From contig BTVV01000121.1 of NCBI GenBank assembly GCA_045863855.1, forward strand, positions 1-18,733: a DNA stretch of 18,733 nucleotides, read 5' to 3'. The stretch comes from Planctomycetota bacterium. Lineage in GTDB: Bacteria > Planctomycetota > SZUA-567 > H5-PLA8. The notes under the pieces are model-generated. The model had not been told where the DNA came from and did no database searches. It saw nothing but the letters and a program-made list of their open reading frames with translations. Of this stretch, positions 3,518-18,574 are shown piece by piece (within the stretch, counting starts at the first letter, position 1; every line of letters begins with the position of its first letter). The position numbers were made by a program, and so were the translations under genes.

Positions 3518-3592
3518 GTTCGAGAATTGTACTCACGTCGGCGCAGTTCGTCTCGTCTAAGTGCTAAGTACACGTACTAGGGGAAGGCGCTC

Positions 3593-4375: not shown

Positions 4376-4405
4376 AAACGGGCAGCTCTCCAAGAGAGCT
4401 GCCCG
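4374..4405 (-). terminator. Intrinsic terminator between convergent genes
   Basis: Perfect 12-bp stem cgggcagctctc-caa-gagagctgcccg (4379-4405). The A-run at 4374-4378 reads as a U-tract on the minus strand, just downstream of the PA14 gene stop. Confidence 0.85.
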
Positions 4406-4428
4406 CGATTCGAGCACGTAAGCAGAGT

Positions 4429-5607
4429 CTACTTCTTCTTCCGGCCTTTCTTTTCGTCGGGCTTTGCCTTCGCTTCAGGTTTGGCTTCCGATTTGGCCGC
4501 CGCTTCTGGCTTCGCTTCGGGTTCTTCGATCTTTTCGCCCGGCACCGTGGCATGGAACACCTGTTCCTGGCTCAAGCGATCTTTCATGCCCTCCGCGTGC
4601 TTCCATGCGAGCCACAGTTCGGCGCCCTCGTCCACGTTGAAGTACTCGACGCGCAATTCGGCTTCGCCTTTGCGCAGCTCGATTTGGCCCCACATCGTCT
4701 CGGTCTTGTGCGCGCCGTCGTTATCGACCACCAAGTCGCCGTTGACGAACAGCCGCGCGCCGTTGTCGGACGTCAGCCAAAACGTATAGAGGCCGTCCTC
4801 CTCGGCTTTCACCTTCCCGTGCATCTCGCCGTATACCTGGACGTGCGGCGCGCCGGGCGGCGGACCTTTGGGCGTCGTGAAGCCGCACACCGTGAGCGGC
4901 AGGATCGCATCGGGCGCGCGATCGGGACGCGCCGGCACCTTGGTGAGCTTTTCTTGCGTATCGGCGAGACTCCACCATTCGGCGCGCAGGCCGGGCAAGG
5001 TCTCGGGAAGCGCCGAAGGATCCGCCTCGGCCGTGCCCGCGGCCGTCGCGGGTGCGGCATCCAGAAGATCGGTGGCCGCTTGCGCGGCGACCGAGGAATC
5101 CGTGGTCTTGTGCAGCAGCGCGCCGGTTACGTATCCGACCGCTAGCATCACCAGCGCCGCCAAAGGCAGCGCGATGCGGCGCGGACTGACCGGATGCGCC
5201 GGACGCTCCTGCGTGGCGGGTGCTGCAATAGGTGCGGTCGAGGACCCCGCCGCCGGACGGCGCTCGGATACCGGAGCTTTCGCGGCCGGCTGGGCCCCGC
5301 TGGCGCGCTTGGGCGCTACCGCCGGAGCCACCTGCTGCGCTCCGCTGGTGCGACGCCGGGGCGTAACCGGAGCTTGCTGCTGCTGCTGCACCCCGCTGCT
5401 GCGCCGAGACGGAGCGGCCGGAGCTTCCGGCGCCACGCGTTCCGACGCGCGCCGAGGCACGCTACCTTGGGCCGGCGTGCGGCGAGCCGAAGGAGCCCCC
5501 GCCGCGGGCGTGCGCCGACCTTCCGAACTGCGCCGCTCCGATCCGCGGGCTGCTGGAGCGGAACCGGTGCGGCGGGACGAAGAACGGCGCGAAGGAGGAA
5601 GGGCCAT
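4429..5607 (-). CDS. Single-pass membrane protein with C-terminal PA14 domain and low-complexity Arg/Ser/Ala/Pro N-terminus
   Basis: PA14-like motifs PGLRAEWW, GLYTFWLTSDNGARLFVNGDLVVDNDGAH, IELRKGEAELRVEYFN, ELWLAW. TM helix IALPLAALVMLAVGYVTGALL. ATG at 5607 is preceded by AAGGTGG; alternative GTG start at 5619. Confidence 0.85.
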   Translation of the reverse strand: MALPPSRRSSSRRTGSAPAARGSERRSSEGRRTPAAGAPSARRTPAQGSVPRRASERVAPEAPAAPSRRSSGVQQQQQAPVTPRRRTSGAQQVAPAVAPKRASGAQPAAKAPVSERRPAAGSSTAPIAAPATQERPAHPVSPRRIALPLAALVMLAVGYVTGALLHKTTDSSVAAQAATDLLDAAPATAAGTAEADPSALPETLPGLRAEWWSLADTQEKLTKVPARPDRAPDAILPLTVCGFTTPKGPPPGAPHVQVYGEMHGKVKAEEDGLYTFWLTSDNGARLFVNGDLVVDNDGAHKTETMWGQIELRKGEAELRVEYFNVDEGAELWLAWKHAEGMKDRLSQEQVFHATVPGEKIEEPEAKPEAAAKSEAKPEAKAKPDEKKGRKKK

Positions 5608-5608
5608 G

Positions 5609-5767
5609 CGGGCTGCCACCTTGATTCAAACCGAAGAAGTCTTGTAGTCCCCGAGGGGCACAACGAGCAAGAGGCCGTCGTCCATTTCCAACACGTGCAT
5701 GCGGTTCTGTTTTGCTTACCCCGATGAATTGAAGGCGTCCGAACTCTTTCGGCTTAAAAATCACCCG
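5609..5767 (-). ncRNA. Candidate structured RNA (long irregular hairpin; 6S-like or cis-regulatory leader)
   Basis: Hand folding: 5763-5742 pairs with 5641-5622 at 19 of 20 positions (4 G-U, one 2-nt bulge). Inner helices ggggta/tgcccc and agcaa/ttgct are separated from the outer helix by a 19/13-nt bubble. No family motif recognised. Confidence 0.3.
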
Positions 5768-5768
5768 T

Positions 5769-5789
5769 GCACCTCACTAAGCGAGGTGC
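5769..5789 (-). terminator. Hairpin downstream of the sigma-54 activator, possible weak terminator
   Basis: Minus strand gcacctcgc-tta-gtgaggtgc (9 bp including one G-U). The U-run is 8 nt away, so it is atypical. Confidence 0.3.
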
Positions 5790-5864
5790 GGTCTGTTGGA
5801 AGTAACGATAGATGAGGAAGATCCTTGCGCCTCAGATCGGCGCTAATACTTGCACGTGTGCAGC

Positions 5865-7355
5865 TTAGGGCTCGTCCGAAGGATCGTCGCCACCCGTCGG
5901 CATCCCGTAGTCGTTCAGCATCCGGTACAGCCGCTTGCGGCTCACGCCCAACAACTGCGCGGCCTTGCTTTTGTTGCCTTGGCTCAATGCCAGCGCGCGG
6001 TTGAGCGCCTCGCGCTCCATATCGTTCATGCTCAACGGAGTGGGCGAAGCCGCCGCAAGGGCCGGCGCCGGTGCAAGCCCTTCGGCGCAGGGCGCCGGCG
6101 TGCCTCCCGCATTCGGGCAGCGCAGCCAGTCGGGCAGATCGGCCGGCATGAGCTGCTCGTCGGCGCCGAGCGCGTAAGAACTCTCGACCACGCTCTCCAG
6201 TTCGCGCACGTTGCCTGGCCACGGGTAGCGCGAAAGCTGGGCGAGCGTTTCCGGCGCGACGCGGCGGATGCGCCGGCCGTTGCGCTTGCCGTGCTTGGCC
6301 AGGAAATGGTCCAGCAAGATAGGAAGGTCCTCGATGCGGTCGCGCAGCGGCGGCAGATGCATGCGTACGACGCCCAGCCGGTAGTACAGATCGTCGCGCA
6401 GGACGCCCCGCGCGCGGGCCTGGTCGATGTCCCAATTCGTGGCGGCGATCACGCGCACGTCGACGGGCAGCTCGCGCGTCGAACCCACCGGGCGGACGCG
6501 GCGGTCTTGCAGCACGCGCAGCAGTTTGGCCTGCGTGTCCTTGGGCATATCGACCACTTCGTCGAGGAAGATCGTCCCGCCGTCGGCGGCGCGGAAGAGC
6601 CCCTTGCTTTCGCGCGTCGCGCCGGTAAACGAGCCCGCTTCGTGACCGAAAAGCTCGGATTCGATCAGGTTCTCGGGCAGCGCGGCGCAGTTGACCGGGA
6701 TGAAGGCGCGCTCTCCGCGCTCGCCCAAGGCGTGAATCGCCCGCGCGACCAGTTCCTTTCCGGTCCCGCTCTCCCCGGTGATCATCACCGTCGCGGCGCT
6801 GCGCGCCGCCGCTTCGATGCGCCGGTACAGCGCCCGCATGATGGGGCTCTGGCCGATCATCCCCACCCGAGCGCTCTCGCCGTCGCCTTCGCGCGCGGCG
6901 GCGGGTTCGCCGGGCGCGTGCGCCTCCACCTTGGCGATCAGCTCCGCCCTTTCGAAGGGTTTGGTGACGTAATCCGCCGCGCCGCGCTTCATCGCCTCGA
7001 CTGCATCTTGAACCGTCGCGTAGCCGGTCATCAGCAGCACCGGGACCTCCGGGGCCAGCGCCTTGACCTCGCGCAGCAGATCCATCCCGTTGGTTTCGCG
7101 GCCCAGGCGTACGTCGGAAAGCACGATCTGGATGGCGGGCTTCCTGCCCGCGAGGCCGTCGCGGATCCGCGCGAGCGCCTGCGCCGCGTGCTCCGCGCCT
7201 TCGGCCAGCCAGCCGCGGCGGGCAAAAAGGTCGCAGCACATCTGCCGCATCGCAGCATCGTCCTCGACGACCAGCAGGGCCATGCTTCCCGGGTGCGCCG
7301 TCGGATCCGGCGCTTCGGCCAAGCTGTGCGGTGAGTCGTAAAAGCTCGCGGACAT
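5865..7355 (-). CDS. Sigma-54-dependent response regulator, NtrC/AtoC family (REC, AAA+, Fis HTH)
   Basis: REC LLVVEDD...VLSDVRL...MTGY...KPF. Walker A GESGTGKE, ESELFGHEAGSFTGA, Walker B IFLDEV, RDDLYYRL, WPGNVREL, HTH GNKSKAAQLLGVSRKRLYR. Start uncertain: ATG 7355 preferred over TTG 7385. Confidence 0.96.
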   Translation of the reverse strand: MSASFYDSPHSLAEAPDPTAHPGSMALLVVEDDAAMRQMCCDLFARRGWLAEGAEHAAQALARIRDGLAGRKPAIQIVLSDVRLGRETNGMDLLREVKALAPEVPVLLMTGYATVQDAVEAMKRGAADYVTKPFERAELIAKVEAHAPGEPAAAREGDGESARVGMIGQSPIMRALYRRIEAAARSAATVMITGESGTGKELVARAIHALGERGERAFIPVNCAALPENLIESELFGHEAGSFTGATRESKGLFRAADGGTIFLDEVVDMPKDTQAKLLRVLQDRRVRPVGSTRELPVDVRVIAATNWDIDQARARGVLRDDLYYRLGVVRMHLPPLRDRIEDLPILLDHFLAKHGKRNGRRIRRVAPETLAQLSRYPWPGNVRELESVVESSYALGADEQLMPADLPDWLRCPNAGGTPAPCAEGLAPAPALAAASPTPLSMNDMEREALNRALALSQGNKSKAAQLLGVSRKRLYRMLNDYGMPTGGDDPSDEP

Positions 7356-7468
7356 GCCTTCGAGATCCCCATTCTCTATACCCAAGTATAGCGGATAGCG
7401 AGGCTAACACGCCACGAAACCGGCCTCCTACAGTCCTGTTTGGGATAATCCTCTAACGTGCTTAAAGG

Positions 7469-7751: not shown

Positions 7752-9524
7752 ATGTCCTCCCTCGCATCGCCGGCCGCGCGCTCCCGCGGCGCCGACCTGC
7801 TTCTCGTCGCGGCCATCGTCCTGGGTGGCGTGCAAGGCGCGCGGCATTGGTGGTACTGCGACGACGCGTTCATCGGCTACCGCTATGCGCAGCACCTCGC
7901 CGCGGGCGAAGGTTTGGTCTTTAATCCCGGCGAACGCGTCGAAGGCTACACCGATCTGCTCTGGGTGCTCTGGAACGCCTTGCCGTTCTATTTCGGTTCG
8001 GGGCCCGAGGTCTGGGCCAACCTATCCGGCCTGACCAGCTACGTCGCCTGCCTGGGCTTGCTGGGTGTGTTGCAGCAGAGCCGTGCGCGCGCGCTCTACG
8101 GCGAACGTGCGGCGCAGACCTGGCCGCTGGCTGCGCTGGCGGGCGCGCTGCATCCCGATTGGAACGACTACGCGACCAGCGGCATCGAGACGACTCCCTT
8201 CGCGCTGGCCGTCCTGGCGGCCTACGCGGTGCTGGTCTGGAAGGAACTCACGCCCCGGCGCGCCGCGTGGGCCGGAACGCTCTTCGCCGTCGCGACACTG
8301 CTGCGCCCCGAAGGTCTGATGCTCGGTGCGTTGGGCGGGCTCTACGTGCTCTGGCAGGCTCCGCGGCGCGTCGCGTGCGCCGCGGCCTTTGCGGCGGCCG
8401 TCGCGCTCTTCTGGGGACCGGCCCAAGTCTGGCGCATGCTGTACTACGGCGACTTCTGGCCCAACACCTACTACGCCAAATCGGCCGAGCTTTCCTGGTA
8501 CGGGCAGGGCGCGCAGTACACCTGGAGCTACCTTGCGAAGTACTGGACGCTCTTGGCGCTACCGCCGCTGGCCGTGTGGGTTTGGCGTAAGGTCTCGCAA
8601 GCGGACGACGCCGCCGGCGCGCCGCGCTCGGCCTGGCCGGAAATCGTCCTCGCACTGGCCCTATGGGGCAGCTACGCCTTTTCGGTCCTGCGCGTGGGCG
8701 GCGATTTCATGTACGCACGCCTCTTCATTCACGTCGCGCCCCTTGGGCTGGTGGCGCTGGAACGGCTTTGGGAATGCGCGGCCCTCTCGCGGCGAGGCGT
8801 GTACGCCGCCGGCGCGCTGATCCTCGTCGCCGGACCCTTCGCAACCCAAGCCGCCTACCCGTACAACTTGCTGGCCTACAGCGTGGCCGATGAAGCGCGA
8901 CTGTACTCGCCCGAAGTCGGCCGCCAGCAGGACGTGAACGGATTGGAACTGCTTCGGTACACCGAAGGCGTCCCTGTTCGCGTCCTGATCTTCGGAAGCG
9001 AAGCGCGCATCGTCTACCGCGCGCGGCTGCACGATGTCCTGGAAGGCCACGGCCTGACCGACCGGACCATCGCGCGCCGGCCGCTGGCGGGACGCGGGCG
9101 CCCGGGGCATGAAAAAATTCCCACGCTGGATTACGTCCTGATCGACCGCAAGATTCAGTTCCTTTTTCGCCCCGACGCTTACGCCGAGCCGATGCAGTTC
9201 AACCGCGTGATCCCGTACTACACCGCGCATTTCGGCTCGATCGAAGCGTTCGTGCTGACGTGGGATCCGGCAATCATGCGCGCGTTGTGGGCGAAGGGCG
9301 TGCGCAGCCGCGATTTCCTGGCCGATCTCGATGCGTATCTGGCGGACCTGCCGAACGTGCCGCGCGCGAAACTCGCCGACGATTACGCGCGTTTCTGGAA
9401 CTTCTACTTTGCGCACACCGACGATCCCGCGCGCGAGCGTCCGTTCCTGGAACGATTGGGCCTGAAGGCGCGCCCCAGCGGGCTGCTCTTCCCCGAACGC
9501 TTCGCGCAGGAGCATGGGCGCTGA
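7752..9524 (+). CDS. AftB-like (GT89-type, GT-C fold) polyprenyl-phosphate-sugar-dependent glycosyltransferase, paralogue 1
   Basis: Polytopic membrane protein. DDAFIGYRYAQHLAAGEGLVFNPGERVEGYT after TM1, LLRPEG, RMLYYGDFWPNTYYAK, GGDFMYARL and GLTD...GRPGHEK all match, in order, motifs I recall from actinobacterial AftB (DD...GPVFN.GERVE, RMGYYG, GGDFMHGR, RIGHDK). Confidence 0.8.
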   Translation: MSSLASPAARSRGADLLLVAAIVLGGVQGARHWWYCDDAFIGYRYAQHLAAGEGLVFNPGERVEGYTDLLWVLWNALPFYFGSGPEVWANLSGLTSYVACLGLLGVLQQSRARALYGERAAQTWPLAALAGALHPDWNDYATSGIETTPFALAVLAAYAVLVWKELTPRRAAWAGTLFAVATLLRPEGLMLGALGGLYVLWQAPRRVACAAAFAAAVALFWGPAQVWRMLYYGDFWPNTYYAKSAELSWYGQGAQYTWSYLAKYWTLLALPPLAVWVWRKVSQADDAAGAPRSAWPEIVLALALWGSYAFSVLRVGGDFMYARLFIHVAPLGLVALERLWECAALSRRGVYAAGALILVAGPFATQAAYPYNLLAYSVADEARLYSPEVGRQQDVNGLELLRYTEGVPVRVLIFGSEARIVYRARLHDVLEGHGLTDRTIARRPLAGRGRPGHEKIPTLDYVLIDRKIQFLFRPDAYAEPMQFNRVIPYYTAHFGSIEAFVLTWDPAIMRALWAKGVRSRDFLADLDAYLADLPNVPRAKLADDYARFWNFYFAHTDDPARERPFLERLGLKARPSGLLFPERFAQEHGR

Positions 9525-9536
9525 ACGCCATACCGC

Positions 9537-10469
9537 TTACGCGTTGCGCAGCGGATTGTGCTTGGTGAAGACCGAGAAAATCTTGATCAACTGCTGGATG
9601 CCCGAATCCATATTGACGTCCGCCTTGTACCCCAGCGCGGCGAGTTTGCTGTAATCGACTTCGTAGTCGCGCTGGTCCAAGTCGTGCCCCACGTCGGCTT
9701 CGTGAAGGTAAAATTCCAGGTACTTGCGCACGTACTCGGCGATCTCGCGCTTGGTGTAGTTCATCGACGTATCGCCGACGTTGTAAACCTGCCCGCGCAT
9801 CTTATCGAAATGATCCATGGTGAACGGGTAGCTGGCCGCCGCGTCGTGACTGTGCAGGAACGTCCGCCGGAAGTGCCCTTCGTACAGGATAATCTGTCGG
9901 TTGTGAATCGCCTGGTAGACAAAATCGTTGACGAGCAGGTCCAGGCGCAGGCGCGGCGAAGGGCCGAAGACGGTGGCGAAACGCAGGATCGCGTGCTCCT
10001 GCCCGCTGTCCTTGACCAATTTCTCGGCGTCGCGCTTGTTCTGCCCGTACAGCGTCAGCGGCGCGATGGGCGTCTCCTCGGTGGCGATGCCCACCACCTT
10101 GCCGTACGTGCTCCCGGTGGACGCGAAGATCAGGCGCTGCCCTTTGCTCATCGCCATCAGCACGTTCCGCGTGCCGTCGACGTTTGTCGTGTGCGCGCGT
10201 TGCGGATCGGCCGCGCACGCCGGGTAGCCCACGATCGCCGCCAGATGCAGGATCCAGTCGTGATCCTTCACCGCCTTGGCCAGCGCCAGGCCGTCGCGCA
10301 CGTCGCCCTTCACGATATTGAGCTTGGGATGCTGGCAGAACCCGAAGAGCGGCTCCGCCCCGTACATGAACGTGTCGAAGATCGTGACCGTATGCCCGCG
10401 TTCGAGCAGCATCGGGGCGAGCACCGCGCCGATGTAGCCGGCGCCTCCGGTAATCAGGACGCGTTCCAT
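9537..10469 (-). CDS. NAD-dependent epimerase/dehydratase-family SDR, Cj1427-like GDP-sugar C4 dehydrogenase subfamily
   Basis: TGGAGYIG and YGQNK (YxxxK). Subfamily motifs LAAIVGYPAC, RFATVFGPSPRLRLDLLVNDF, YEGHFRR, DKMRGQVYN and DLDQRDY resemble C. jejuni Cj1427 as recalled. ATG 10469 lies 8 nt after the GT2 stop. Confidence 0.88.
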   Translation of the reverse strand: MERVLITGGAGYIGAVLAPMLLERGHTVTIFDTFMYGAEPLFGFCQHPKLNIVKGDVRDGLALAKAVKDHDWILHLAAIVGYPACAADPQRAHTTNVDGTRNVLMAMSKGQRLIFASTGSTYGKVVGIATEETPIAPLTLYGQNKRDAEKLVKDSGQEHAILRFATVFGPSPRLRLDLLVNDFVYQAIHNRQIILYEGHFRRTFLHSHDAAASYPFTMDHFDKMRGQVYNVGDTSMNYTKREIAEYVRKYLEFYLHEADVGHDLDQRDYEVDYSKLAALGYKADVNMDSGIQQLIKIFSVFTKHNPLRNA

Positions 10470-10477
10470 GGATGCCC

Positions 10478-11260
10478 TCAGGGTTGTCGCGGCGCTGCGT
10501 TCGCCGCGGGTGCGGACTCCAATGTGGCACCGCGCGCCCAAATCTTCAAGGCCATGCCCACATAACGGAAGGTGCGCCAGAACGTATTCTTCGACTGCCC
10601 CTGCACGCGCGCGGTCCATTTGCTGGGCACCGCGCCGACTTTTGCGCCCAGTTTGATCGGCTTCATCGTCGTCTCGCAGGCGATCTCGTGCAGCGTGCCT
10701 TCCCAGGCGATTCCGCGCGCCAATTCCCCGCGCATCAGCTTGAACCCGTACGTCAAATCGTTGACGCGCGTGAGGTACAGGATGCGGAACAGCTGTTGGA
10801 AGCCCCAGTTGAGCAGGTACTTCTTGCGGTCGTAGCCGCTGAAGCCGCCGCCCTTCATCCAGCGGCTCGCCACGACCATCTCGTAACCGTGCGCTTCCAT
10901 CGCCTCCAGCATCCGCGATACCGTCTCGTTCTCCATCTCGCCGTCGCTGTCCATGTTCAGGACCAGGTTGCCGCGGGTGAGCGCGTAACCTTCCTTCACC
11001 GCGTTGCCCAGGCCGGGATTGACCTGCTGGACGTGAATGCGAAAGCGCGGGTCCGCCGCACACAGTTCGTCGCAGACGGCGCGCGACGCCGGACCGGATT
11101 TGGGGCTCAGTACGATGATCGTCTCGAGCATCCGCGCACCCAGCTTTTCGCGCAGCCAGTTCGCGACTTCGCGCACGCTGTCCGTTTCGGCGAATACGGG
11201 CAGCACGACGCTGATGCGGTAGTCGGCGGGGGCGAGCGGGGGGAGGTTCAGTCGAGCCAT
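10478..11260 (-). CDS. GT2 glycosyltransferase, DPM1/Ppm1-like polyprenyl-phosphate glycosyltransferase
   Basis: ISVVLPVFAE, NPGLGNAVKEG, DxD motif in MDSDGE, MVVASRWMKGG, DLTYGFKLMR. No C-terminal TM pair. ATG 11260 is 11 nt after the upstream stop. Confidence 0.88.
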   Translation of the reverse strand: MARLNLPPLAPADYRISVVLPVFAETDSVREVANWLREKLGARMLETIIVLSPKSGPASRAVCDELCAADPRFRIHVQQVNPGLGNAVKEGYALTRGNLVLNMDSDGEMENETVSRMLEAMEAHGYEMVVASRWMKGGGFSGYDRKKYLLNWGFQQLFRILYLTRVNDLTYGFKLMRGELARGIAWEGTLHEIACETTMKPIKLGAKVGAVPSKWTARVQGQSKNTFWRTFRYVGMALKIWARGATLESAPAANAAPRQP

Positions 11261-11271
11261 GCGCGTCCGGG

Positions 11272-12426
11272 TTAGCCCTGGATGTCCCGGACCGCTTCCT
11301 GCCATGCGGCCATTCCCAGCGTCATCTGGCGCAGGTATTCGCGTTCGGGGCGGTCCAGCGCCGAGTCGGCTTCGAGGCTCTCGCGCAGATGGTACGTCAG
11401 GTCCAGGTAGCCCGCGCTCCAGGTCTTCGAAGCGGTCTTGAACGCGCGCAGGTACGGGATCAGGCGCTCGGTGAGGATGTAGCCGCCCAGCTCTTCGCTC
11501 AGGTCCTTCGTAAAATTATGCGGATTACGGTCCTGCGTGACGACCGGAGGTCCGTACGCGACGTGCCCGCCCAACTGGTCGCCCAGCGCGCGGATAAAGT
11601 AGCTCTGCCAGATGTCGTCCAGCCGGCCGATCTTGTACCCGCGCAGCCAGTCGCCCATCACCACCAGGTACAGCGCAGGCAGCAGATCGCGGTGCAGCGC
11701 CGTGTTCTGGCTGTTGAACGGGCACCACGTTCCGTAGGCCAGCGCGAACCGCGTCGTGCTTTCCACTTCGCGAACCTTCACCACGTTGAGCGGCTCTTCG
11801 ATGTTTGCCGTCGCGTCCACGTCGGGATTCTTGAGCCACAGTCCCGCGTTGACGATCACGTTCACGTCCTGCAGACCCACCGTCTCGCCGCCGAATTCGA
11901 AGGACTGCGCCGACTTCGGATATCCGCGGTGGTAGAAGCGCCGCGGCGGATCGCACTCCAGCCGCTCGCAGACGTTGTACCAGCCCGATTCGTTGCGAAC
12001 GACCGGGATCTTCGCGCGCGTCCCGGTCACCGCGTGCGCGGCGAGGTAATCCACGTCCTCGTGCACGAAGTTGTCGTCGTCGAAGCTGATGATGATCTCC
12101 GCGCCGTCGATCCCCGCCTGCAGGTAACCCACGTTGCGCCGCTGGATGCTGTTCCAGCGGATCACGCCGTCGAGGACCGGCCAGCGGCGCAGCATCGCCT
12201 GCTGCTCGCCGACGTCGAGGTACTTCATCATGCTGCCGAAGCGCTTGTGAAGGTCCTGCAGGAAGGTCGCCGCACCCGCCGGCGTCTTGCGGTCGCCGAC
12301 GACGATCACCTCCACGCGGTCCGAATGCCCGTACTGGGCAATGTTCTCCATGTACGCTTCGATGCAGCGCGGGACGTTGATCGTCGTCGTCACCAGCGCC
12401 ACTTTACGGCGGTCAGGTGCGGGCAT
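11272..12426 (-). CDS. RGP/GT75-family protein (UDP-arabinopyranose mutase/MtdL-like; STELLO-related), putative NDP-sugar pyranose-furanose mutase
   Basis: TTI, VVGDRKTP, RRNVGYL, ISFDDDNF (D116-118), HRGYP (R167), GLWLKNPDVDA, GTWCPFNSQNTA, IGRLDDIW, QDRNPHNFTKDL. AAGGAGG RBS. Overlaps the upstream gene by 14 nt. Confidence 0.8.
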   Translation of the reverse strand: MPAPDRRKVALVTTTINVPRCIEAYMENIAQYGHSDRVEVIVVGDRKTPAGAATFLQDLHKRFGSMMKYLDVGEQQAMLRRWPVLDGVIRWNSIQRRNVGYLQAGIDGAEIIISFDDDNFVHEDVDYLAAHAVTGTRAKIPVVRNESGWYNVCERLECDPPRRFYHRGYPKSAQSFEFGGETVGLQDVNVIVNAGLWLKNPDVDATANIEEPLNVVKVREVESTTRFALAYGTWCPFNSQNTALHRDLLPALYLVVMGDWLRGYKIGRLDDIWQSYFIRALGDQLGGHVAYGPPVVTQDRNPHNFTKDLSEELGGYILTERLIPYLRAFKTASKTWSAGYLDLTYHLRESLEADSALDRPEREYLRQMTLGMAAWQEAVRDIQG

Positions 12427-13354
12427 CGGCCGCCTCCTTGTTCGCGAGATACCAGTCGGCCGTCTGCTTCAAGCCCGCTTCCAGCGAAGTGGGCGGTTGC
12501 CAGCGCAAAACCTGCTTCATCCGCGAAACGTCCAGCACTTTGCGCAACACCCCATCGGGCTTGGACGTATCCCAGACGATCCGGCCTTCGTAGCCCGTCA
12601 CCCGAGCGGTCACTTCCGAAAGCTCTTTGATGCTCGTGCCGATCCCCGTGCCGATGTTGAGCGGCTCGGCGTAATCGGTCTCCAGCAGCCGCGCCACGCC
12701 TTCGGCCGCGTCGCCGCTGTAGAGGAACTCCCGCACCGGCGCCCCGGTGCCCCAGCAGACCACCTCGGGCTTGTTCTCCAGCTTCGCGTCGGCGAACTTC
12801 TTGATCAGCGCCGCGGCCACGTGCGAACGATACTCAGTGAAAACGTCGTACTCGCCGTACAGATTCGTGATCTGCGGGCACTGCACCGTCCAGCCGTGCT
12901 GCCGCGCGTAGGCCCGCGCGCCCACGAGCTGGACCTTCTTCGTGAAGCCGTACGCTTCCACCGACGGATGCAGCGCGCCGGCCCAGAAATCGGTTTCGTT
13001 CATGTCGCCGGCCACCGCGCCGGGATAAGCGCACGCCGAACCGATCGAGACGAAGCGCTTCACGCCTCCCGCCGCGGCCATCCCTTCGAGAAGATGCGCG
13101 GCCATCAGTACGTTATCGTGGAAAATCCGAGCCGGCTCGGCCACGCAGATGCCCAGCCCGCCGTAATACGCCGCCGAATGCACGACCGTATGCGGGCGCA
13201 CTACCTTTAAGGTGCGCGCTACGGAAACCGGATCGAGCAGGTCGAACTCCGGCCGCCCCGGCGCGGCGACTTCGTGGCCGTGCGCGCGCAGCGCTTCCAC
13301 GATCCGTCGGCCGAAGAAGCCCCGCCCGCCCGTAACTAGAATGGTCAATGCCAT
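12413..13354 (-). CDS. fcl: GDP-L-fucose synthase-like 3,5-epimerase/4-reductase
   Basis: TGGRGFFG, GSACAYP (catalytic Cys), YGFTK, TNLYG, SHV (catalytic His), WGTGAPVREFLY, WDTSKPDG. ATG at 13354. Exact substrate uncertain. Confidence 0.85.
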   Translation of the reverse strand: MALTILVTGGRGFFGRRIVEALRAHGHEVAAPGRPEFDLLDPVSVARTLKVVRPHTVVHSAAYYGGLGICVAEPARIFHDNVLMAAHLLEGMAAAGGVKRFVSIGSACAYPGAVAGDMNETDFWAGALHPSVEAYGFTKKVQLVGARAYARQHGWTVQCPQITNLYGEYDVFTEYRSHVAAALIKKFADAKLENKPEVVCWGTGAPVREFLYSGDAAEGVARLLETDYAEPLNIGTGIGTSIKELSEVTARVTGYEGRIVWDTSKPDGVLRKVLDVSRMKQVLRWQPPTSLEAGLKQTADWYLANKEAADART

Positions 13355-13382
13355 ACTCGGCTCTCGTTCCACGACTTCACAA

Positions 13383-13411
13383 GGTGTATCCGGCCCGCCC
13401 GATCTGCGCAA
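13383..13411 (-). promoter_or_regulatory. Possible weak internal sigma-70 promoter for the four-gene cassette
   Basis: TTGCGC-N17-TACACC in the only sizeable gap (105 nt) of the minus-strand run. Poor match to consensus. Confidence 0.2.
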
Positions 13412-13459
13412 TGCGGGGGCACAAGTGCAGGTTGCGCCGCAAAAGACGGCGCCGCTTCG

Positions 13460-15244
13460 CTACGGGATTGAAATTGGCGGCCCTGCCTCGAACGTGGGCC
13501 GGTCCATGCGCAAGCGACGCCGAAACGCTTCCTCGCGCTTGGGATCGGGAACGTGAATGAAATAAAAGTTCGAGAGCTTCCGGTACAGGTCCGCGGCTTC
13601 CTCGTCGCTGAGGCGGTCCAATACGGCGATCGTGCGGTCCAGATCCCCGAGGAAATCGGGCACGTTCACGCCGCGCTCCTGCAGCGCCTTCATGATCTGC
13701 GGATGCCACGTCAACACGAAGACCCGCGCGCGCTCGATGCGGATTTCCATGAAGGGGATATGCCGGTCCCCGCCGACGAACATGTAGTAGCCCGCTTCGC
13801 TGGTTGTGAAATGGACCGAGCGTTCGACCAATATGTAATGCGGCGACGCCACCTTCTCGTGCCCGGGCCGGCCGCGAACCGGCAGCGGCTGGCGAGCGAC
13901 ATGCGCGTCCGTCAGACCGTGGACTTCCAGCGCGTAGGGAACCTCGGCGCGGTAAATCACGCGCGCTTCGGAACCCGGCATCAGCATCCGCACCGGCAAT
14001 CCTTCGAAATACCGCCGGAGCGTCTCGCCCGTGTAATCGAGGTACGGGCCTTGCATGACGTTCATGTAATACAGCCGCTCGTTGGAAATGCCGCGCCCGT
14101 AATCCATCCGGTCCTGCTTGAACGCCGTCCAGAACGGATGCCCCGCCAGGATCAGCACCGCGGCCAAGCCCAGCGCGGGCCATCGACCCAGGAAGCGCAG
14201 CAGCGTGTAATCCAGCACCAGCAGCGCGAAGGGCGTCGCTGGGATCAGCAGGCGCGAGAACATGAAATCGCCGCCCACGCGCGCCACGTATAACGTGTAC
14301 GCCAGCGCTACGGCTCCGGCCAGCACCACCAGCGGCGCGTCCGCGTCGCGGCCGGCAAGCTCGCTTGCGCGGGACTTCCAGCCCGTCCACGCCAACCACA
14401 AAAGCCATAGCGCAGGCAACGCCGCCAGTGGCCAATAAACCTGCACGTACGTCCAGACGTAGTAAAGCCCCTGGCTGTAGTAGGGGAGGTTGGCCGATTT
14501 CGCGTAGTAGGTATTGGGAAAGAAGTCGCCGTAGTACGCCATGCGCCAGGCTTGCGCCGGTGTCCACAACACCAAAAAGGTACCCGCGTAGCGCAACGCC
14601 GTGACGAGCCGCGGAGTGCCGCGCCAAAGCACGAACAGCCCCGCGAGGAACGCGGGCAGCACCCCATCGGGGCGGAGCAGACCTGCTACGGCAAAGCTCG
14701 CACCCGCCGCCCACGGCGCCCAGCGTTTTTCGTTGAGCACCGCCAAGCACGCGAAGCCGCAAACCAGCGCCGCCGTGATAGCCGAGGTCTCCAGGCCGCC
14801 GGTGGCGTAAACCGCCCAATCGGGATGCAACCCCGCCGCCAGCGCCGCGAAGGGCAGCGTGAGCGTCGCGGCCGGATGCGCCTGCCGCGCCCAACGGCGA
14901 TGCAGCCATGCCAACAGCAGGATCGTCGCCCCGAAGCATGCGATCCCCGAAACATTGGCCCATGTCTCCGGGGTGACGCCGCACGGAAACGCGAGGCTGC
15001 ACCACAGCACCCAGAGCAGATCGGTGAACCCTTCCACGCGCTCGCCCAAGTTGAAGACGAGACCGTGGCCTTGGTAGAGATGCTTCGAATACCGGAATAC
15101 GATGTACGCGTCGTCGCTGACCCACCAAAAGCGTACGCTCTGAACGAGGCCGCCCAAAAGCGCCAGCGCGATCAGCGCGCGGGTAAGCCAGCCGCCCCCG
15201 TCGCGGCGGACGGCGGCTTCGGGAGCGGTCGGGGCCGGCGGCAT
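13460..15244 (-). CDS. AftB-like (GT89-type, GT-C fold) glycosyltransferase, paralogue 2
   Basis: DDAYIVFRYSKHLYQGHGLVFNLGERVEGFT, LLRPDG, RMAYYGDFFPNTYYAK, GGDFMFSRL, GLTD...GRPGHEK. Colinear with 7752..9524 over its full length. ATG 15244 is 17 nt after the ALDH stop. Confidence 0.8.
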   Translation of the reverse strand: MPPAPTAPEAAVRRDGGGWLTRALIALALLGGLVQSVRFWWVSDDAYIVFRYSKHLYQGHGLVFNLGERVEGFTDLLWVLWCSLAFPCGVTPETWANVSGIACFGATILLLAWLHRRWARQAHPAATLTLPFAALAAGLHPDWAVYATGGLETSAITAALVCGFACLAVLNEKRWAPWAAGASFAVAGLLRPDGVLPAFLAGLFVLWRGTPRLVTALRYAGTFLVLWTPAQAWRMAYYGDFFPNTYYAKSANLPYYSQGLYYVWTYVQVYWPLAALPALWLLWLAWTGWKSRASELAGRDADAPLVVLAGAVALAYTLYVARVGGDFMFSRLLIPATPFALLVLDYTLLRFLGRWPALGLAAVLILAGHPFWTAFKQDRMDYGRGISNERLYYMNVMQGPYLDYTGETLRRYFEGLPVRMLMPGSEARVIYRAEVPYALEVHGLTDAHVARQPLPVRGRPGHEKVASPHYILVERSVHFTTSEAGYYMFVGGDRHIPFMEIRIERARVFVLTWHPQIMKALQERGVNVPDFLGDLDRTIAVLDRLSDEEAADLYRKLSNFYFIHVPDPKREEAFRRRLRMDRPTFEAGPPISIP

Positions 15245-15261: not shown

Positions 15262-16779
15262 CTACGCCTGCACGTCGATCTGCGCCTTCTGCAGCTTGCC
15301 GCTGTAATCGACGTACACGCTCTTCCATTCGCTGAAGACATCCAGCACGGCCTGCCCGGCTTCGCGGTGCCCGTTCCCGGTGTTCTTCACGCCCCCGAAA
15401 GGCATGTGGACTTCGGCGCCGATGGTCGGGCCGTTGATGTACGTGATTCCGGCTTCTAAATCGCGAATCGCCCGGAACGCGCGGTTCACGTCGCGCGTGT
15501 AAATGCTGCTCGAAAGACCGTACGCCGTGCCGTTCAACACCTCCACCGCCTGCTCGAAACTGTTCACCTCAATCGCCGCGGTGACCGGCCCAAAGATTTC
15601 TTCCTGGGCGATGCGCATATCCGGCGTCACGCCGTCGAAGACCGTGGGCTCGTAGTACCAGCCGTGCTTATAGGCCGCTCCGGTTGGACGCCGCCCGCCG
15701 CACAGGAGTTTTGCGCCCTCTTCTTGTCCGATCGCCACATAGCGTTCGACGCGCTCGCGCTGCGCCTCGTTCACGAGCGGCCCGATCTGGTGGCGCTCGT
15801 TCAGCGGATCGCCCAAACGGAGCTTCTGCGCCGCCGCAACCAGCCGCTTCACGAACGTGCGCTTGATCTTGCGGTGCAGGATCAAGCGGCTCGTCGCCGT
15901 GCAGCGCTGCCCGGCCGTCCCGAACGCGCCCCACAGCGCGCCTTCCAGCGCGAGATCCAGGTCCGCGTCGTCCATCACGATCTGCGCGTTCTTGCCGCCC
16001 ATCTCCAGGCTGCAGCGCTTCAAATTCTGCCCGCACGCCCCCGCGATCAGGCTGCCGGTCTCGCACGAGCCCGTAAAGCTGATCAGGCGCACGTCCGGAT
16101 GATGCACCAGCGCCGCGCCGACTTCCTCGCCGAAGCCCTGCACGAGATTCACGACCCCAGGCGGCACGCCGGCGTCCCGAAGCGCCGCGGCGAACGCCGC
16201 GCCGCACGCCGGCGAGTCTTCCGCCGGCTTGAAGACCACCGTATTGCCGCACAGGATCGCCGGAAAAATCTTCCAGGCCGGGATCGCGACCGGGAAGTTC
16301 CACGGTGTGATCATCCCGCACACGCCCACCGGCACGCGCACGGCCATCGCGAACTTGCTGGGCAGTTCGCTGGTGGACGTATCGCCGAAGAGCCGGCGGC
16401 CCTCGCCGCTGTAGTACTCCGCGCAGTCGATCGCCTCCTGTACGTCGCCCCGCGATTCGACCAGCGGCTTGCCCATCTCGAACGACATGAGCTTCGAGAG
16501 CTTTTCCTTGCGATCGCGCAACACCGCCGCGCACTGCCGCAAGACCGCCCCGCGCAACGGAGGCGGCGTCAGCCGCCAGGCATCGTACGCCCCCTTGGCC
16601 GCCGCCACCGCCGCCTCGACCTCTTCCCGCCCCGACCGCGGAAACACCCCCACCACCTTCCGCCCATCCGCCGGACTGCGGCTCTCGAACGTCCGCCCCC
16701 CCGCCGCCGGCACCCAAGCGGATCCGACCAGGTTGGATGGAAGCGATCCGTTGCCGCCCACCAAGCACCCCATGACCAT
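15262..16779 (-). CDS. NAD(P)-dependent aldehyde dehydrogenase
   Basis: ITPWNFP, VFKPAE, SFTGS, LEMGGKN (catalytic Glu), GQRCTA (catalytic Cys), EEIFGPV, PFGGVKNTG. AAGGAG 5 nt before ATG 16779. The longer ORF to 17100 would overlap the divergent gene. Confidence 0.95.
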   Translation of the reverse strand: MVMGCLVGGNGSLPSNLVGSAWVPAAGGRTFESRSPADGRKVVGVFPRSGREEVEAAVAAAKGAYDAWRLTPPPLRGAVLRQCAAVLRDRKEKLSKLMSFEMGKPLVESRGDVQEAIDCAEYYSGEGRRLFGDTSTSELPSKFAMAVRVPVGVCGMITPWNFPVAIPAWKIFPAILCGNTVVFKPAEDSPACGAAFAAALRDAGVPPGVVNLVQGFGEEVGAALVHHPDVRLISFTGSCETGSLIAGACGQNLKRCSLEMGGKNAQIVMDDADLDLALEGALWGAFGTAGQRCTATSRLILHRKIKRTFVKRLVAAAQKLRLGDPLNERHQIGPLVNEAQRERVERYVAIGQEEGAKLLCGGRRPTGAAYKHGWYYEPTVFDGVTPDMRIAQEEIFGPVTAAIEVNSFEQAVEVLNGTAYGLSSSIYTRDVNRAFRAIRDLEAGITYINGPTIGAEVHMPFGGVKNTGNGHREAGQAVLDVFSEWKSVYVDYSGKLQKAQIDVQA

Positions 16780-16819
16780 GAATGCTCCTTCTAGAAAGCT
16801 TTTCCAAAACAACACTAAA

Positions 16820-16828
16820 AGTATATCA
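16820..16828 (-). promoter_or_regulatory. Candidate extended -10 promoter for the ALDH-led operon
   Basis: TGATATACT (TGn + TATACT) about 40 nt upstream of the ALDH ATG, in an AT-rich divergent spacer. No clear -35. Confidence 0.4.
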
Positions 16829-16942
16829 TACTTGCCTTCAAGAGCATGGAAAGCATTACTCGCGGCCAAGCATGGGCCATGATTGTCGTAATGCAGGTCG
16901 CAGAATGGTGGATTTTCACGATCCAGTACGGAAAATAGAACC

Positions 16943-18574
16943 ATGAATGAAATAAAGCCGGGCGGGGAAAAGGCTGCATTAGACGGCCTAGATTGGATTT
17001 TTATTATATTCATGACCGCTTTCACGAGCGCGTTACTAGTGGTTGCGTATTGGTCCATATCCTGGGAAGTCCACTGGGATGCCATGTGGCTGCATCGCAT
17101 CGCTTACTTGATTTTCGAGCGAGACTATGCGCCTTATCGGGATATTTTCGACCCCAATATGTATGGAAGCTTCATTCTGCATGGAATGGTAGGGGCAATT
17201 GGAGGGTATAATGACATAAGCTTGCGCATATTTGACCTGCTTTGGTTGGGCTTGATGTGTTTATGTATGTTTCGAATTCTATGTGTTCATTTTGACTGGA
17301 GATGCGCATGGTTTGCCCCCATTGCATACGCTTGGATTTATTTGAATCAGGATGAAACTCAATGCATTCAGCGTGAGCATTTGATGGTATTGCCGTTGCT
17401 GGCCGCATTGTGGGTTGCGGGAACGCCTTTATTGGCTGGCAAACCGCCGTGGCTGCGCCCCTTTTTTATCGGGATCCTTTATGGTTTAGGAGCTTCGATC
17501 AAGCCGCATTGTGTGGTGAGTTTGCCAGTGTTAGCCATAATTAATTTCGACGCCGCCCATTCGGGCGGATCGATTCTTGACTGGTTTCGATTGCGGAGGC
17601 CGAAAGAGGCTCTCATCGCTGGAATCTCCGCTATCGCAGGTTTCATGATTCCCTTGGCGTTAGGATTCGCATGGCTTTACCAAATGGGTTCACTCGGTGA
17701 TTTTTGGGTTATGGTTTATGAATACTGGCCGCTGCACCGTAAGCTTGCGCTAGTTAACGGCACGATGTATCCAACGCAGCAGCTTCCCAGTCTAGGGGAA
17801 CGCTTCGGGGGGTTTATTCGCTTTCAAAATTTCGGAAATCACGAGCTGCTATTCGCCGGAGTGGCGCTCGCATTGCTGACTGGGTATCGCTACTTCAAGG
17901 AAAGTAGACCTCATCGTTTAGCGGCGACTGCTATTTGCCTTTGTGTTTGCGCTCACGTTGCGGGGCTAATATTCATTGGAATCTATCACCCCTATTCATG
18001 GATGCCAATATTATGTTTTTTATGCATGCTACATTCATTGACATTTTGGCGTGCATCAAAACCTGGATCAAAGCTGATTCAAGTAGTTATATATTTGGCC
18101 TCCATCCTGGCATACGCTCACGGATCTGTTCATATAAACGTGAGCACGCGGTTGCAGTGGTCCGGCTTGCCGCCGAAGACATACTGGTCAAGGCAAGTCG
18201 ATGGAATTATGGCATGCTTGAAGGCCCGATTAAGGCCGGACGATAAGGTGCAACCATTCGACATTTTGGGCGGATCAGACCGCGCGCTGACTCTGCTTGG
18301 CGCCGACAACGGAACATTCTTGGCATGCGAGCACTTCTTGAACTTTCACGTTCGAAATCCAGCTGTCATCAGAATTAGAGATCGGTTTTGGTTAGAATTA
18401 ACGAGGAATAAGCCAAGACTGATTGTCATCGTCAATCAATTAAGGCTTTATTCGCTGGATCCGCAGGACGATGGAGAATATTCCGAAAAAATCAATAAGT
18501 GGCTTTCTGAAAACTACAATAAGGCGTGTCAAGCAGATGGATTTGTCGTACTCGAGCGCAAACCCGAAGAGTAG
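16943..18574 (+). CDS. Low-GC polytopic membrane protein, probable GT-C (ArnT/PMT-like) glycosyltransferase
   Basis: Many TM segments. Acidic loop after TM1 (HWDA...APYRDIFDPNMYG), QREH, GASIKPH, and a soluble C-terminal domain with KPRLIV. Layout is typical of GT39/GT83-like proteins; it is not an AftB-type paralogue. Confidence 0.65.
   Translation: MNEIKPGGEKAALDGLDWIFIIFMTAFTSALLVVAYWSISWEVHWDAMWLHRIAYLIFERDYAPYRDIFDPNMYGSFILHGMVGAIGGYNDISLRIFDLLWLGLMCLCMFRILCVHFDWRCAWFAPIAYAWIYLNQDETQCIQREHLMVLPLLAALWVAGTPLLAGKPPWLRPFFIGILYGLGASIKPHCVVSLPVLAIINFDAAHSGGSILDWFRLRRPKEALIAGISAIAGFMIPLALGFAWLYQMGSLGDFWVMVYEYWPLHRKLALVNGTMYPTQQLPSLGERFGGFIRFQNFGNHELLFAGVALALLTGYRYFKESRPHRLAATAICLCVCAHVAGLIFIGIYHPYSWMPILCFLCMLHSLTFWRASKPGSKLIQVVIYLASILAYAHGSVHINVSTRLQWSGLPPKTYWSRQVDGIMACLKARLRPDDKVQPFDILGGSDRALTLLGADNGTFLACEHFLNFHVRNPAVIRIRDRFWLELTRNKPRLIVIVNQLRLYSLDPQDDGEYSEKINKWLSENYNKACQADGFVVLERKPEE

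What the first reader, a model, noticed from the sequence alone, without database searches (positions are those of the whole stretch)
7752..15244. Putative complete nucleotide-sugar to lipid-linked furanose pathway feeding two AftB-like transferases
Seen: four tightly coupled genes (14-nt overlap, then 11- and 8-nt gaps: Fcl-like, RGP/GT75, DPM1-like GT2, Cj1427-like SDR), bracketed by two AftB-like GT-C genes. Known: AftB uses decaprenyl-P-D-arabinofuranose made from PRPP by a UbiA-type transferase and DprE1/DprE2, none of which is in this window. GT75 proteins (plant UAM/RGP, actinomycete MtdL) contract NDP-pyranoses to furanoses without flavin, and DPM1-like GT2s load sugars on polyprenyl phosphate. 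Inference: GDP-manno-sugar -> C4 oxidation -> 3,5-epimerisation/reduction to GDP-L-galacto-sugar -> mutase to furanose -> polyprenyl-P-furanose -> extracytoplasmic transfer. L-Galf and L-Fucf share the C2-C4 ring stereochemistry of D-Araf, which would explain the use of AftB-family enzymes. I know of no description of this combination.
Basis: partly seen in the sequence, partly recalled or inferred. Interest (0 to 1): 0.88.

Follow-up and report, generated by a model that had tools for sequence, protein, structure and literature searches.

The report
Lipid-linked L-galactofuranose envelope glycosylation cassette
An uncultured planctomycete carries a conserved four-gene cassette that likely turns GDP-mannose into a five-membered-ring form of L-galactose and likely loads it on a membrane lipid, and the two flanking relatives of a mycobacterial cell-wall enzyme would then attach it to the cell surface, a route not found in the literature searched here.

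Summary
Observation confirmed: all six genes, the 14-nt overlap and the 11- and 8-nt gaps. The genes match Fcl, MtdL (GT75), a DPM1-like GT2, Cj1427 and AftB. The four inner genes stay together in 9 of 80 GT75 loci. The membrane partner changes: AftB-like, unclassified GT-C-like, or GT87, which is fused to the GT2 in 32 of 33 longer GT2 relatives. This supports a lipid-linked sugar for extracytoplasmic transfer. L-galactofuranose is the best guess: this genome has no gmd or HddA match, and in G027 a GME-like enzyme replaces the SDR pair. Corrections: the pathway is not complete, since no flippase was found. The genome also has a dprE1-dprE2-ubiA operon elsewhere, so the AftB-like pair has a second possible donor. 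Still, among 8 genomes of the family, AftB orthologs occur in exactly the 5 with the cassette, and 2 of these lack DprE1 and UbiA matches. The GT75 differs from MtdL at Asp87 and His287. The scan noted the general idea before on other DNA. Nothing is shown biochemically.

The parts
7752..9524 (+). AftB-like GT-C 1 (590 aa), convergent with the cassette; keeps D38, T67, E146, R185, T239, R323 (= M. chubuense AftB D62, T91, E172, R221, T274, R372)
9537..10469 (-). Cj1427-like extended SDR (310 aa), predicted GDP-mannose C4 dehydrogenase; T118/Y141/K145 kept, Ser at the position of the dehydratase Glu
10478..11260 (-). DPM1-like GT2 (260 aa, no TM helix), predicted polyprenyl-phosphate glycosyltransferase; fused to GT87 in many relatives
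11272..12426 (-). GT75 / MtdL-like protein (384 aa), predicted metal-dependent GDP-pyranose-furanose mutase; MtdL D87 and H287 are replaced by I94 and Q298
12413..13354 (-). Fcl/GFS-like 3,5-epimerase/4-reductase (313 aa); S106, C108, Y135, K139, H178 kept
13460..15244 (-). AftB-like GT-C 2 (594 aa), same strand as the cassette; keeps D45, T74, E152, R191, T245, R331

Best explanation
The four inner genes form a conserved cassette that likely makes a polyprenyl-phosphate-linked furanose, most likely L-galactofuranose, from GDP-D-mannose, and at least one of the two AftB-like GT-C proteins likely transfers it to a cell-envelope acceptor outside the cytoplasm. Steps, all inferred: (1) the Cj1427-like SDR oxidises C4 of GDP-D-mannose without dehydration; (2) the Fcl-like enzyme epimerises C3 and C5 and reduces C4, giving GDP-beta-L-galactopyranose, so the pair does the job of a GDP-mannose 3,5-epimerase; (3) the GT75 protein contracts the ring to GDP-beta-L-galactofuranose; (4) the inverting GT2 moves the sugar to polyprenyl phosphate, giving the 1,2-cis alpha-L-Galf-P-lipid, which has the ring and anomeric geometry of the mycobacterial donor beta-D-Araf-P-decaprenol plus one CH2OH on C5; (5) an unidentified flippase exports it; (6) a GT-C transfers it. 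Shown here: the genes, their families, kept residues, conserved clustering and fusions. Not shown: any activity, the sugar, the flippase, the acceptor.
For: Clustering: all four genes within 10 kb in 9 of 80 GT75 loci (L001-L009; 46-99% identity; several gene orders; Planctomycetota, a Polyangia record and one labelled Alcaligenaceae). A GT-C or GT-C-like gene is inside, beside or fused to the cassette in 7 of these 9: AftB-like x3 in L001; unclassified multi-TM proteins in L002 and L004 (related to each other, E 5e-8; Atlas neighbours of the L002 protein are mannosyltransferase/PMT_2-like, a lead only); GT87 fused to the GT2 in L005, L006, L008; separate GT87 in L009. 32 of 33 longer relatives of the GT2 carry PF09594 GT87. 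Residues: Fcl-like keeps the S/Y/K triad and C/H epimerase dyad described in PMC7949155. GT75 keeps MtdL T13, S86 (guanine-selective), D109-D111, R159, D195, S228, Q229, R257, D260, R289, H292 (PMC9937993). GT2 keeps PfDPMS E12, G68/L69, DxD, R117, R202, K208 (PMC5526996). Both AftB-like proteins keep all six catalytic and donor-binding residues of PMC12041299, including the Glu that binds the furanose C5-OH. Sugar: no gmd over cut-off in G000, G064, G193, G303 (4 of 11 cassette genomes); no HddA-like match in G000, G064, G296, G304, G305 (5 of 11); a ManC-like gene is present (250.7 bits, under the 373 cut-off). The cassette SDR is its own subclade (72% or more within, 45% or less to the Cj1427-type genes, many of which sit beside HddA/HddC). 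In G027 one GME-like SDR (best PDB hits GDP-mannose 3,5-epimerase, E 3e-35) heads a GT75 / GT2 (45% to ours) / AftB-like operon, with no DprE1 or DPPR-synthase match. AftB link: in the 8 genomes of this family, full-length AftB orthologs are in the 5 with the cassette and in none of the 3 without; G193 (93% complete) and G254 (91%) have both but no DprE1 or DPPR-synthase match. Among 230 DprE1-negative genomes GT75 is found in 6 of 19 with an AftB-like gene and 11 of 211 without (kin are not independent).
Against: The own genome and both genus relatives carry dprE1-dprE2-ubiA with no GT-C beside it, so a D-Araf lipid donor is available. AftB-like genes go mainly with DprE1 in the phylum sample (29 of 48 versus 42 of 253). 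The sister clade of these AftB-like proteins (G111, G147, G212) is in genomes with DprE1 and no GT75 match. 13 of 19 AftB-positive, DprE1-negative genomes have no GT75 match either. AftB orthologs are unlinked to the cassette in G296, G193 and G254, and G296 and G193 have another GT-C-like gene at the cassette. 0 of 78 metagenome AftB-like loci had a GT75 nearby (many contigs short). GT75 lacks MtdL D87 (D87N and D87S are inactive in PMC9937993) and the Mn ligand H287. GT2 lacks PfDPMS D39 and has K/N/E at R131/S135/K178. No GtrA flippase match in 5 of 5 genomes. The GME-like replacement in a full operon was seen in one genome only: G082, of the same genus, has GT75, GT2 and AftB-like genes but no close GME ortholog. 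The genome has 18 PMT_2-type GT-C matches that could be the true consumer.
Confidence: 0.5

Rival explanations
1. The cassette makes a lipid-linked furanose, but both AftB-like proteins are ordinary arabinofuranosyltransferases fed by the dprE1-dprE2-ubiA operon on contig C142. Their place beside the cassette is a recent rearrangement, and another GT-C uses the cassette product.
For: Intact dprE1-dprE2-ubiA with no adjacent GT-C. Adjacency is seen only in this species. AftB-like genes associate with DprE1 in the phylum; G263 has two AftB-like genes flanking dprE1-dprE2-ubiA. 18 PMT_2 matches in the genome.
Against: G193 and G254 have a clear ortholog (SH-aLRT 99 clade with both window proteins in a quick tree) but no DprE1 or DPPR-synthase match. 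The three family genomes without the cassette lack the AftB ortholog. GT75-GT2-AftB-like gene runs recur in G027, G082 (split over two contigs) and three Chthoniobacterales loci, none with a DprE1 match. No GT87 or L002/L004-type GT-C was found in the own genome.
Confidence: 0.2
2. The route is as proposed but the sugar differs: D-altrofuranose (C3 epimerisation only), a D-glycero-L-galacto-heptofuranose, L-fucofuranose (via Gmd), or D-arabinofuranose via a decarboxylated GDP-mannuronate.
For: Cj1427 acts on GDP-heptose (PMC10680097, passages). L012 shows a heptose version: GmhA-, HddA-, Gmd-like, Fcl, GT75, GT2. 6 of 11 cassette genomes have an HddA-like match and 7 of 11 have gmd. The GT75 sugar pocket differs from MtdL at D87. 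All four sugars share the D-arabino ring configuration, so the AftB residues cannot tell them apart (inference).
Against: This genome has neither an HddA nor a gmd match. The SDR lacks the T-x-E glutamate of dehydratases and decarboxylases (motif recalled; sequences). The three NDP-sugar dehydrogenases of the genome score best to WecC-, TviB/WecC- and Ugd-type models. The C/H dyad points to 3,5-epimerisation. A GME-like gene stands in the same role in G027.
Confidence: 0.17
3. The GT75 protein is not an active mutase (for example an Arg-glycosylated relay or a scaffold), and the GT2 loads a pyranose, L-galactopyranose or mannose, on the lipid for GT87/PimE-like mannosyltransferase-type enzymes.
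For: I94 for D87 and Q298 for the Mn ligand H287; H287 is also lost in inactive AtRGP5 (PMC9937993). The commonest fused partner is GT87, whose only NCBIfam hit is a weak PimE mannosyltransferase match (35 bits, cut-off 413). The GT2's best solved relative is a mannose synthase.
Against: The catalytic Arg, general-base Asp and DDD motif are invariant in the 49-row alignment. Position 87 is Ser in active plant enzymes (PMC9937993). The cassette clade has an extra Asp (D270) next to D271 that MtdL-like D87 proteins lack, a possible compensation (inference). Gln at the His287 position is nearly invariant over bacterial relatives from many phyla. A mannose route would not need the SDR pair or the GT75. 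GT87 also holds the arabinofuranosyltransferase AftC (recalled, not checked).
Confidence: 0.13

Closest known systems
MtdL (A201A pathway) and Hyg20 (hygromycin A pathway), bacterial GT75 GDP-L-galactose/GDP-L-fucose pyranose mutases (PMC9937993)
   Same: Same fold (TM 0.88-0.89, 33% identity), guanine-selective Thr/Ser, DDD, catalytic Arg and Asp; predicted same GDP-L-Galp to GDP-L-Galf step.
   Different: D87 to Ile, H287 to Gln, N42 to Lys, extra Asp270. Context is envelope glycosylation via a lipid carrier, not an antibiotic cluster. A Cj1427-like/Fcl pair stands where A201A uses a GME-type enzyme (MtdM, recalled).
Three-component extracytoplasmic glycosylation: GtrABC, and the PRPP-based pentofuranose systems of Citrobacter youngae and mycobacteria (PMC11127046)
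   Same: Lipid-P-sugar synthase plus GT-C; a furanose on polyprenyl phosphate as predicted donor.
   Different: In the passages read, furanose donors come from PRPP via a UbiA-type synthase and DprE1/E2, and the paper has 0 occurrences of 'mutase' or 'GT75'. Here the furanose would come from a nucleotide sugar through GT75 and a DPM1-like GT2. No flippase found.
Mycobacterial AftB (PDB 9DLF, PMC12041299)
   Same: Best sequence and fold match; all six catalytic and donor-binding residues kept.
   Different: 22% identity, TM 0.60, 44-45 bits against a 1050-bit NCBIfam cut-off; no arabinan acceptor known here; donor may be a hexofuranose.
Campylobacter jejuni Cj1427/Cj1430/Cj1428 heptose modification (PMC10680097)
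   Same: C4 dehydrogenase followed by epimerisation and C4 reduction, keeping the 6-OH.
   Different: No HddA/GDP-heptose route found in this genome; a bifunctional Fcl-type enzyme, no cupin epimerase in the cassette; C. jejuni makes furanoses with FAD mutases.
Dolichyl-phosphate mannose synthase (PDB 5MLZ, PMC5526996)
   Same: GT2 with DxD, phosphate-binding Arg, acceptor loop Arg/Lys and a C-terminal interface helix region.
   Different: No TM/GtrA domain; Asp39, Arg131, Ser135 and Lys178 are changed; donor predicted to be a furanose.

Membership tests
GT75 / RGP NDP-pyranose mutases | PF03214 match and MtdL fold | tested here: met
   43.9 bits over cut-off 23.8; TM 0.88-0.89 to MtdL
GT75 / RGP NDP-pyranose mutases | DDD motif, catalytic Arg159, Asp195, Ser228, Gln229, Arg257, Asp260 | tested here: met
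   D116-D118, R167, D202, S239, Q240, R268, D271
GT75 / RGP NDP-pyranose mutases | Mn ligand His287 and sugar-binding Asp87 of MtdL | tested here: not met
   Q298 and I94; position 87 is Ser in active plant members
GT75 / RGP NDP-pyranose mutases | Pyranose-furanose interconversion | not testable with these tools
   needs an enzyme assay
GDP-L-fucose synthase (Fcl/GFS) | S107/Y136/K140 triad and C109/H179 dyad | tested here: met
   S106, Y135, K139, C108, H178
GDP-L-fucose synthase (Fcl/GFS) | NCBIfam equivalog cut-off and a Gmd partner | tested here: not met
   239 bits versus 500; no gmd over cut-off in the genome
Cj1427 GDP-heptose C4 dehydrogenase | Full-length similarity, T/Y/K triad, no dehydratase Glu | tested here: met
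   E 1.9e-74 over residues 2-301; motifs
Cj1427 GDP-heptose C4 dehydrogenase | GDP-heptose supply (HddA) in the genome | tested here: not met
   only IspE and a galactokinase-like GHMP kinase; no HddA-like match; genome 93.9% complete
Cj1427 GDP-heptose C4 dehydrogenase | alpha-ketoglutarate-dependent NAD recycling | not testable with these tools
   the two Cj1427 papers are not held
DPM1-like polyprenyl-phosphate GT2 | DxD, Arg117, acceptor-loop Arg202/Lys208, Glu12 | tested here: met
   D104/D106, R133, R218/K224, E25
DPM1-like polyprenyl-phosphate GT2 | Arg131/Ser135 phosphate site and guanine-binding Asp39 of bona fide DPMS | tested here: not met
   K147, N151, and no acidic residue at Asp39: it resembles DPMS but is not filed as one
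AftB (terminal arabinofuranosyltransferase) | GT-C fold closest to AftB; D62, T91, E172, R221, T274, R372 | tested here: met
   (fold modelled for AftB-like 2 only)
AftB (terminal arabinofuranosyltransferase) | NCBIfam NF041481 cut-off | tested here: not met
   44.8 and 44.6 bits versus 1050
AftB (terminal arabinofuranosyltransferase) | Polyprenyl-P-D-Araf donor, retaining beta-(1,2) transfer to arabinan | not testable with these tools
   dprE operon is present, so the donor is possible
Three-component extracytoplasmic glycosylation system | Lipid-P-sugar synthase and GT-C | tested here: met
Three-component extracytoplasmic glycosylation system | Flippase | tested here: inconclusive
   none in the window; no PF04138 match in 5 of 5 genomes; MATE/Wzx-type flippases not searched

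The most novel reading that the evidence does not exclude
Bacteria have a second, PRPP-independent way to make a DPA-like donor. GDP-mannose is turned into alpha-L-galactofuranosyl-phosphoryl-polyprenol, a C5-extended stereochemical mimic of decaprenyl-P-D-arabinofuranose, by a split epimerase (Cj1427-like plus Fcl), a flavin-free GT75 mutase and a DPM1-like GT2. It is used by AftB- and GT87-family enzymes. This genus holds both donor routes and 2-3 AftB paralogs, where its sister genus has one route and one copy, so the paralogs may have split between D-Araf and L-Galf.
Probability: 0.35. Interest if true: 0.82.

Novelty: new variant of a known kind. Interest (0 to 1): 0.64.

Why it matters
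If true, this is a nucleotide-sugar route to a lipid-linked furanose, where the systems in the papers read start from PRPP. It would give bacterial GT75 proteins outside antibiotic clusters a role (2406 relatives at E 1e-20 or better among 7519 candidates). It would put L-galactofuranose in a cell envelope and show that AftB-fold enzymes accept a hexofuranose. Four soluble or peripheral enzymes make it testable in one pot, and they would be tools for making furanosyl lipid donors. It also warns that genes auto-annotated 'arabinofuranosyltransferase' need not transfer arabinose.

Tried and rejected
Pfam gave no family for either AftB-like protein; they were placed by NCBIfam, PDB and fold. Neighbourhoods of AftB-like genes in metagenomes were uninformative: 0 of 78 loci had GT75 or DprE-route genes; 30 of all 108 loci examined reached 8 kb. 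Motif windows around the AftB donor site did not separate cassette-only from DprE1-only genomes; the tree is the quick one, the careful search did not finish, and two G064 copies were left out. The GT87 protein of L009 had no PDB match, so PimE versus AftC could not be decided. No GT2 relative in plasmids at E 1e-20. A look-up for cultured carriers named none among 10 proteins. The promoter/terminator scan showed nothing useful. RNA-library contigs of a roughly 95% identical relative cover the four cassette genes in runs of two studies, one contig spanning 10915-12580, but contigs cannot show transcription and the word share was about 0.1: not used as evidence. A D-Araf route through GDP-mannuronate decarboxylation was considered and ranked low. 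A heptose substrate was ranked low for this genome. No complex prediction was run, as no binding is claimed. Three papers were not held. No supplements were read; Fig. S3 of PMC9937993 (GT75 alignment) may bear on the D87/H287 question.

Full report
1. Observation. The window is contig C121 of a 6.93-Mb genome, 93.9% complete; a 99% identical GT75 lies in a Planctomycetota record (L001). The six genes, the 14-nt overlap and the 11- and 8-nt gaps are as reported. AftB-like 2, Fcl-like, GT75, GT2 and SDR run on the minus strand behind an aldehyde dehydrogenase gene; AftB-like 1 is convergent on the plus strand. GC and GC3 of the six genes match the rest of the window (GC3 0.82-0.88).

2. The proteins. 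SDR: best solved relative Cj1427 (E 1.9e-74, next hit E 1e-27), a C4 dehydrogenase that keeps the 6-OH and recycles NADH with alpha-ketoglutarate (PMC10680097, passages). Fcl-like: best hit E. coli GDP-fucose synthase (E 3e-53), with the triad and the Cys/His epimerase dyad named in PMC7949155 (passages) kept in all nine cassette copies, Thr for Ser in one. GT75: MtdL at E 1.7e-56; the model (pLDDT 95) superposes on MtdL at TM 0.88-0.89 and on rice UAM at 0.64. Against PMC9937993 (parts 1-3 of 7 and passages) it keeps T13, S86, D109-D111, R159, D195, S228, Q229, R257, D260, R289 and H292. It changes D87 to Ile, H287 to Gln and N42 to Lys, and gains Asp270. GT2: PF00535, best solved relative P. 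furiosus DPMS (E 6.5e-12). Against PMC5526996 (passages) it keeps E12, G68/L69, DxD, R117, R202 and K208, and changes D39, R131, S135 and K178. AftB-like: weak NF041481 hits; AftB 9DLF is the best sequence hit and best fold hit for the model of copy 2 (pLDDT 90, TM 0.60). D62, T91, E172, R221, T274 and R372 of PMC12041299 (passages) are kept in both copies; D62, R221 and R372 in 53 of 53 aligned relatives.

3. The cassette is the conserved unit; the GT-C is swappable. Of 80 GT75 loci from GTDB genomes, 9 hold all four genes, in several orders, and a tenth (L013) holds GT2 and a GT75 in two pieces. Seven of the nine have a GT-C or GT-C-like gene at the cassette: AftB-like (L001), an unclassified multi-TM family (L002 inside the cassette, L004 beside it), or GT87 (fused to the GT2 in L005, L006, L008; separate in L009). 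L003 and L007 have none recognised. Among longer relatives of the GT2, 32 of 33 are GT87-GT2 fusions. A lipid-P-sugar synthase fused to a GT-C is the expected mark of a lipid-linked donor used outside the cytoplasm (inference from three-component systems, PMC11127046, passages).

4. Which sugar. The genome has no gmd over cut-off, no HddA-like gene and a ManC-like gene. Of 11 cassette genomes, 4 lack a gmd match and 5 lack an HddA-like match, so neither seems required; the genomes are incomplete. The SDR lacks the dehydratase Glu (motif recalled) and forms a subclade apart from Cj1427-type genes that often sit beside HddA/HddC. In G027 the operon reads GME-like SDR, GT75, GT2 (45% identical to ours), AftB-like, with overlapping or abutting genes. 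A GME yields GDP-L-galactose in one enzyme (established knowledge), which is what C4 oxidation plus Fcl chemistry would give in two. This replacement was seen in one full operon. G112 has GT75 next to the same GME-like gene in an ABC-transporter polysaccharide locus, and G082 has the other three genes but no close GME ortholog. Stereochemistry (my inference): GDP-beta-L-Galf is 1,2-trans, and an inverting GT2 gives 1,2-cis alpha-L-Galf-P-lipid, the geometry of beta-D-Araf-P-decaprenol.

5. Do the AftB-like genes use it? Against: contig C142 carries dprE1-dprE2-ubiA, near the NCBIfam cut-offs, with no GT-C beside it. In 301 Planctomycetota genomes AftB-like genes are in 48, DprE1 in 71 and GT75 in 22; 29 of the 48 have DprE1, against 42 of the other 253. 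The nearest outside clade of these AftB-like proteins is in DprE1-positive, GT75-negative genomes. Orthologs are unlinked to the cassette in three relatives. For: in the family, 5 of 8 genomes have the cassette, the same 5 have the AftB ortholog, and only the 3 of this genus have DprE1. G193 and G254 lack DprE1 and DPPR-synthase matches. Among DprE1-negative genomes GT75 is in 6 of 19 with AftB-like genes and 11 of 211 without (overstated by kinship), though 13 of the 19 have neither route. GT2-GT75-AftB-like runs recur in three Chthoniobacterales loci without a DprE1 match. The genus with both routes has 2-3 AftB copies, the sister genus one. I put it at about 0.7 that at least one copy uses the cassette product.

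6. Gaps. No flippase is in the window and no GtrA match was found in five family genomes; other flippase types were not searched. The acceptor is unknown. No activity is shown.

7. Literature and earlier notes. Ten full-text searches returned no paper on a GT75 coupled to a polyprenyl-phosphate GT2 or on lipid-linked L-Galf; I saw listings and abstracts for most hits, and the library omits most subscription papers. PMC9937993 names MtdL and Hyg20 as the only characterised bacterial GT75s. MtdM as a GME and AftC as a GT87 member are recalled, not checked. The scan's own notes hold nine similar findings in at least seven other genomes, eight shown, one with GME, GT75, GT2, AftB-like and flippase genes; they are unchecked and not counted as support. 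No note matched the words Cj1427, GT75, Fcl, galactofuranose and GT87 together, and none matched this protein by sequence.

8. Verdict. A real, conserved and apparently undescribed variant of lipid-linked extracytoplasmic glycosylation. Rough step odds: lipid-linked donor for a GT-C 0.85; furanose 0.75; L-galacto 0.65; used by an AftB-like copy 0.7. Best explanation 0.5 in its broad form (a lipid-linked furanose used by a GT-C), 0.35 for the full L-Galf/AftB reading. Interest 0.64.

Noticed in passing
G000:C142:8588-11638 (L092): dprE1-dprE2-ubiA (DPPR synthase) operon with no GT-C or flippase beside it; conserved in the two genus relatives, not found in five other family genomes. Its consumer is unknown.
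   Followed up: partly
window 16943-18574: Low-GC (47.6%, GC3 0.52) multi-TM protein with a weak PMT_2 match, apparently a foreign GT-C. The 99% relative has a different module at this side of the aldehyde dehydrogenase gene: GT2, membrane protein, nucleotidyltransferase, SDR, DegT-like, FkbM and transketolase-like genes (L265, L001).
   Followed up: partly
L001:7202-8980 versus window 13355-13459: The near-identical relative has a third AftB-like gene between AftB-like 2 and Fcl; the window has only a 105-nt gap there.
   Followed up: partly
L012:3253-12843: Heptose version of the idea in a marine gammaproteobacterial genome: GmhA-, ManC-, Gmd-, RmlC-like, GT2, HddA-like, Fcl, GT75, second Gmd-like, nucleotidyltransferase.
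   Followed up: partly
L266:8502-12995 (G027): GME-like SDR, GT75, GT2 and AftB-like genes in one tight operon among several other GT-C genes and a Wzx-type gene, a candidate flippase.
   Followed up: yes
L268:1670-13998 (G263): dprE1-dprE2-ubiA flanked by two AftB-like genes: the PRPP counterpart of the window's layout.
   Followed up: partly
L021, L036, L058: Chthoniobacterales loci with GT2, a distant-clade GT75 and an AftB-like gene in a row; no DprE1 match in these genomes.
   Followed up: partly
L013:10001-11208: GT75 ortholog in two frames (frameshift or sequencing error) behind a GT2 ortholog, without the SDR and Fcl neighbours.
   Followed up: no
L009:11302-12237: The cassette's Fcl is only 46% identical where the other three genes are 58-69%: a likely replacement by another Fcl lineage.
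   Followed up: no
window 15262-17100: Aldehyde dehydrogenase gene 17 nt upstream of AftB-like 2; also upstream of the cassette in L001 and L002, not in the others. Link to the pathway unknown.
   Followed up: no
window 3593-4375: 260-aa ORF with no Pfam match and an internal repeat of about 25 residues present twice.
   Followed up: no
window 110-7385: GAF/PAS hybrid histidine kinase, a PA14-domain membrane protein and a sigma-54 response regulator; in G296 an AftB-like gene also follows a similar response-regulator gene.
   Followed up: no
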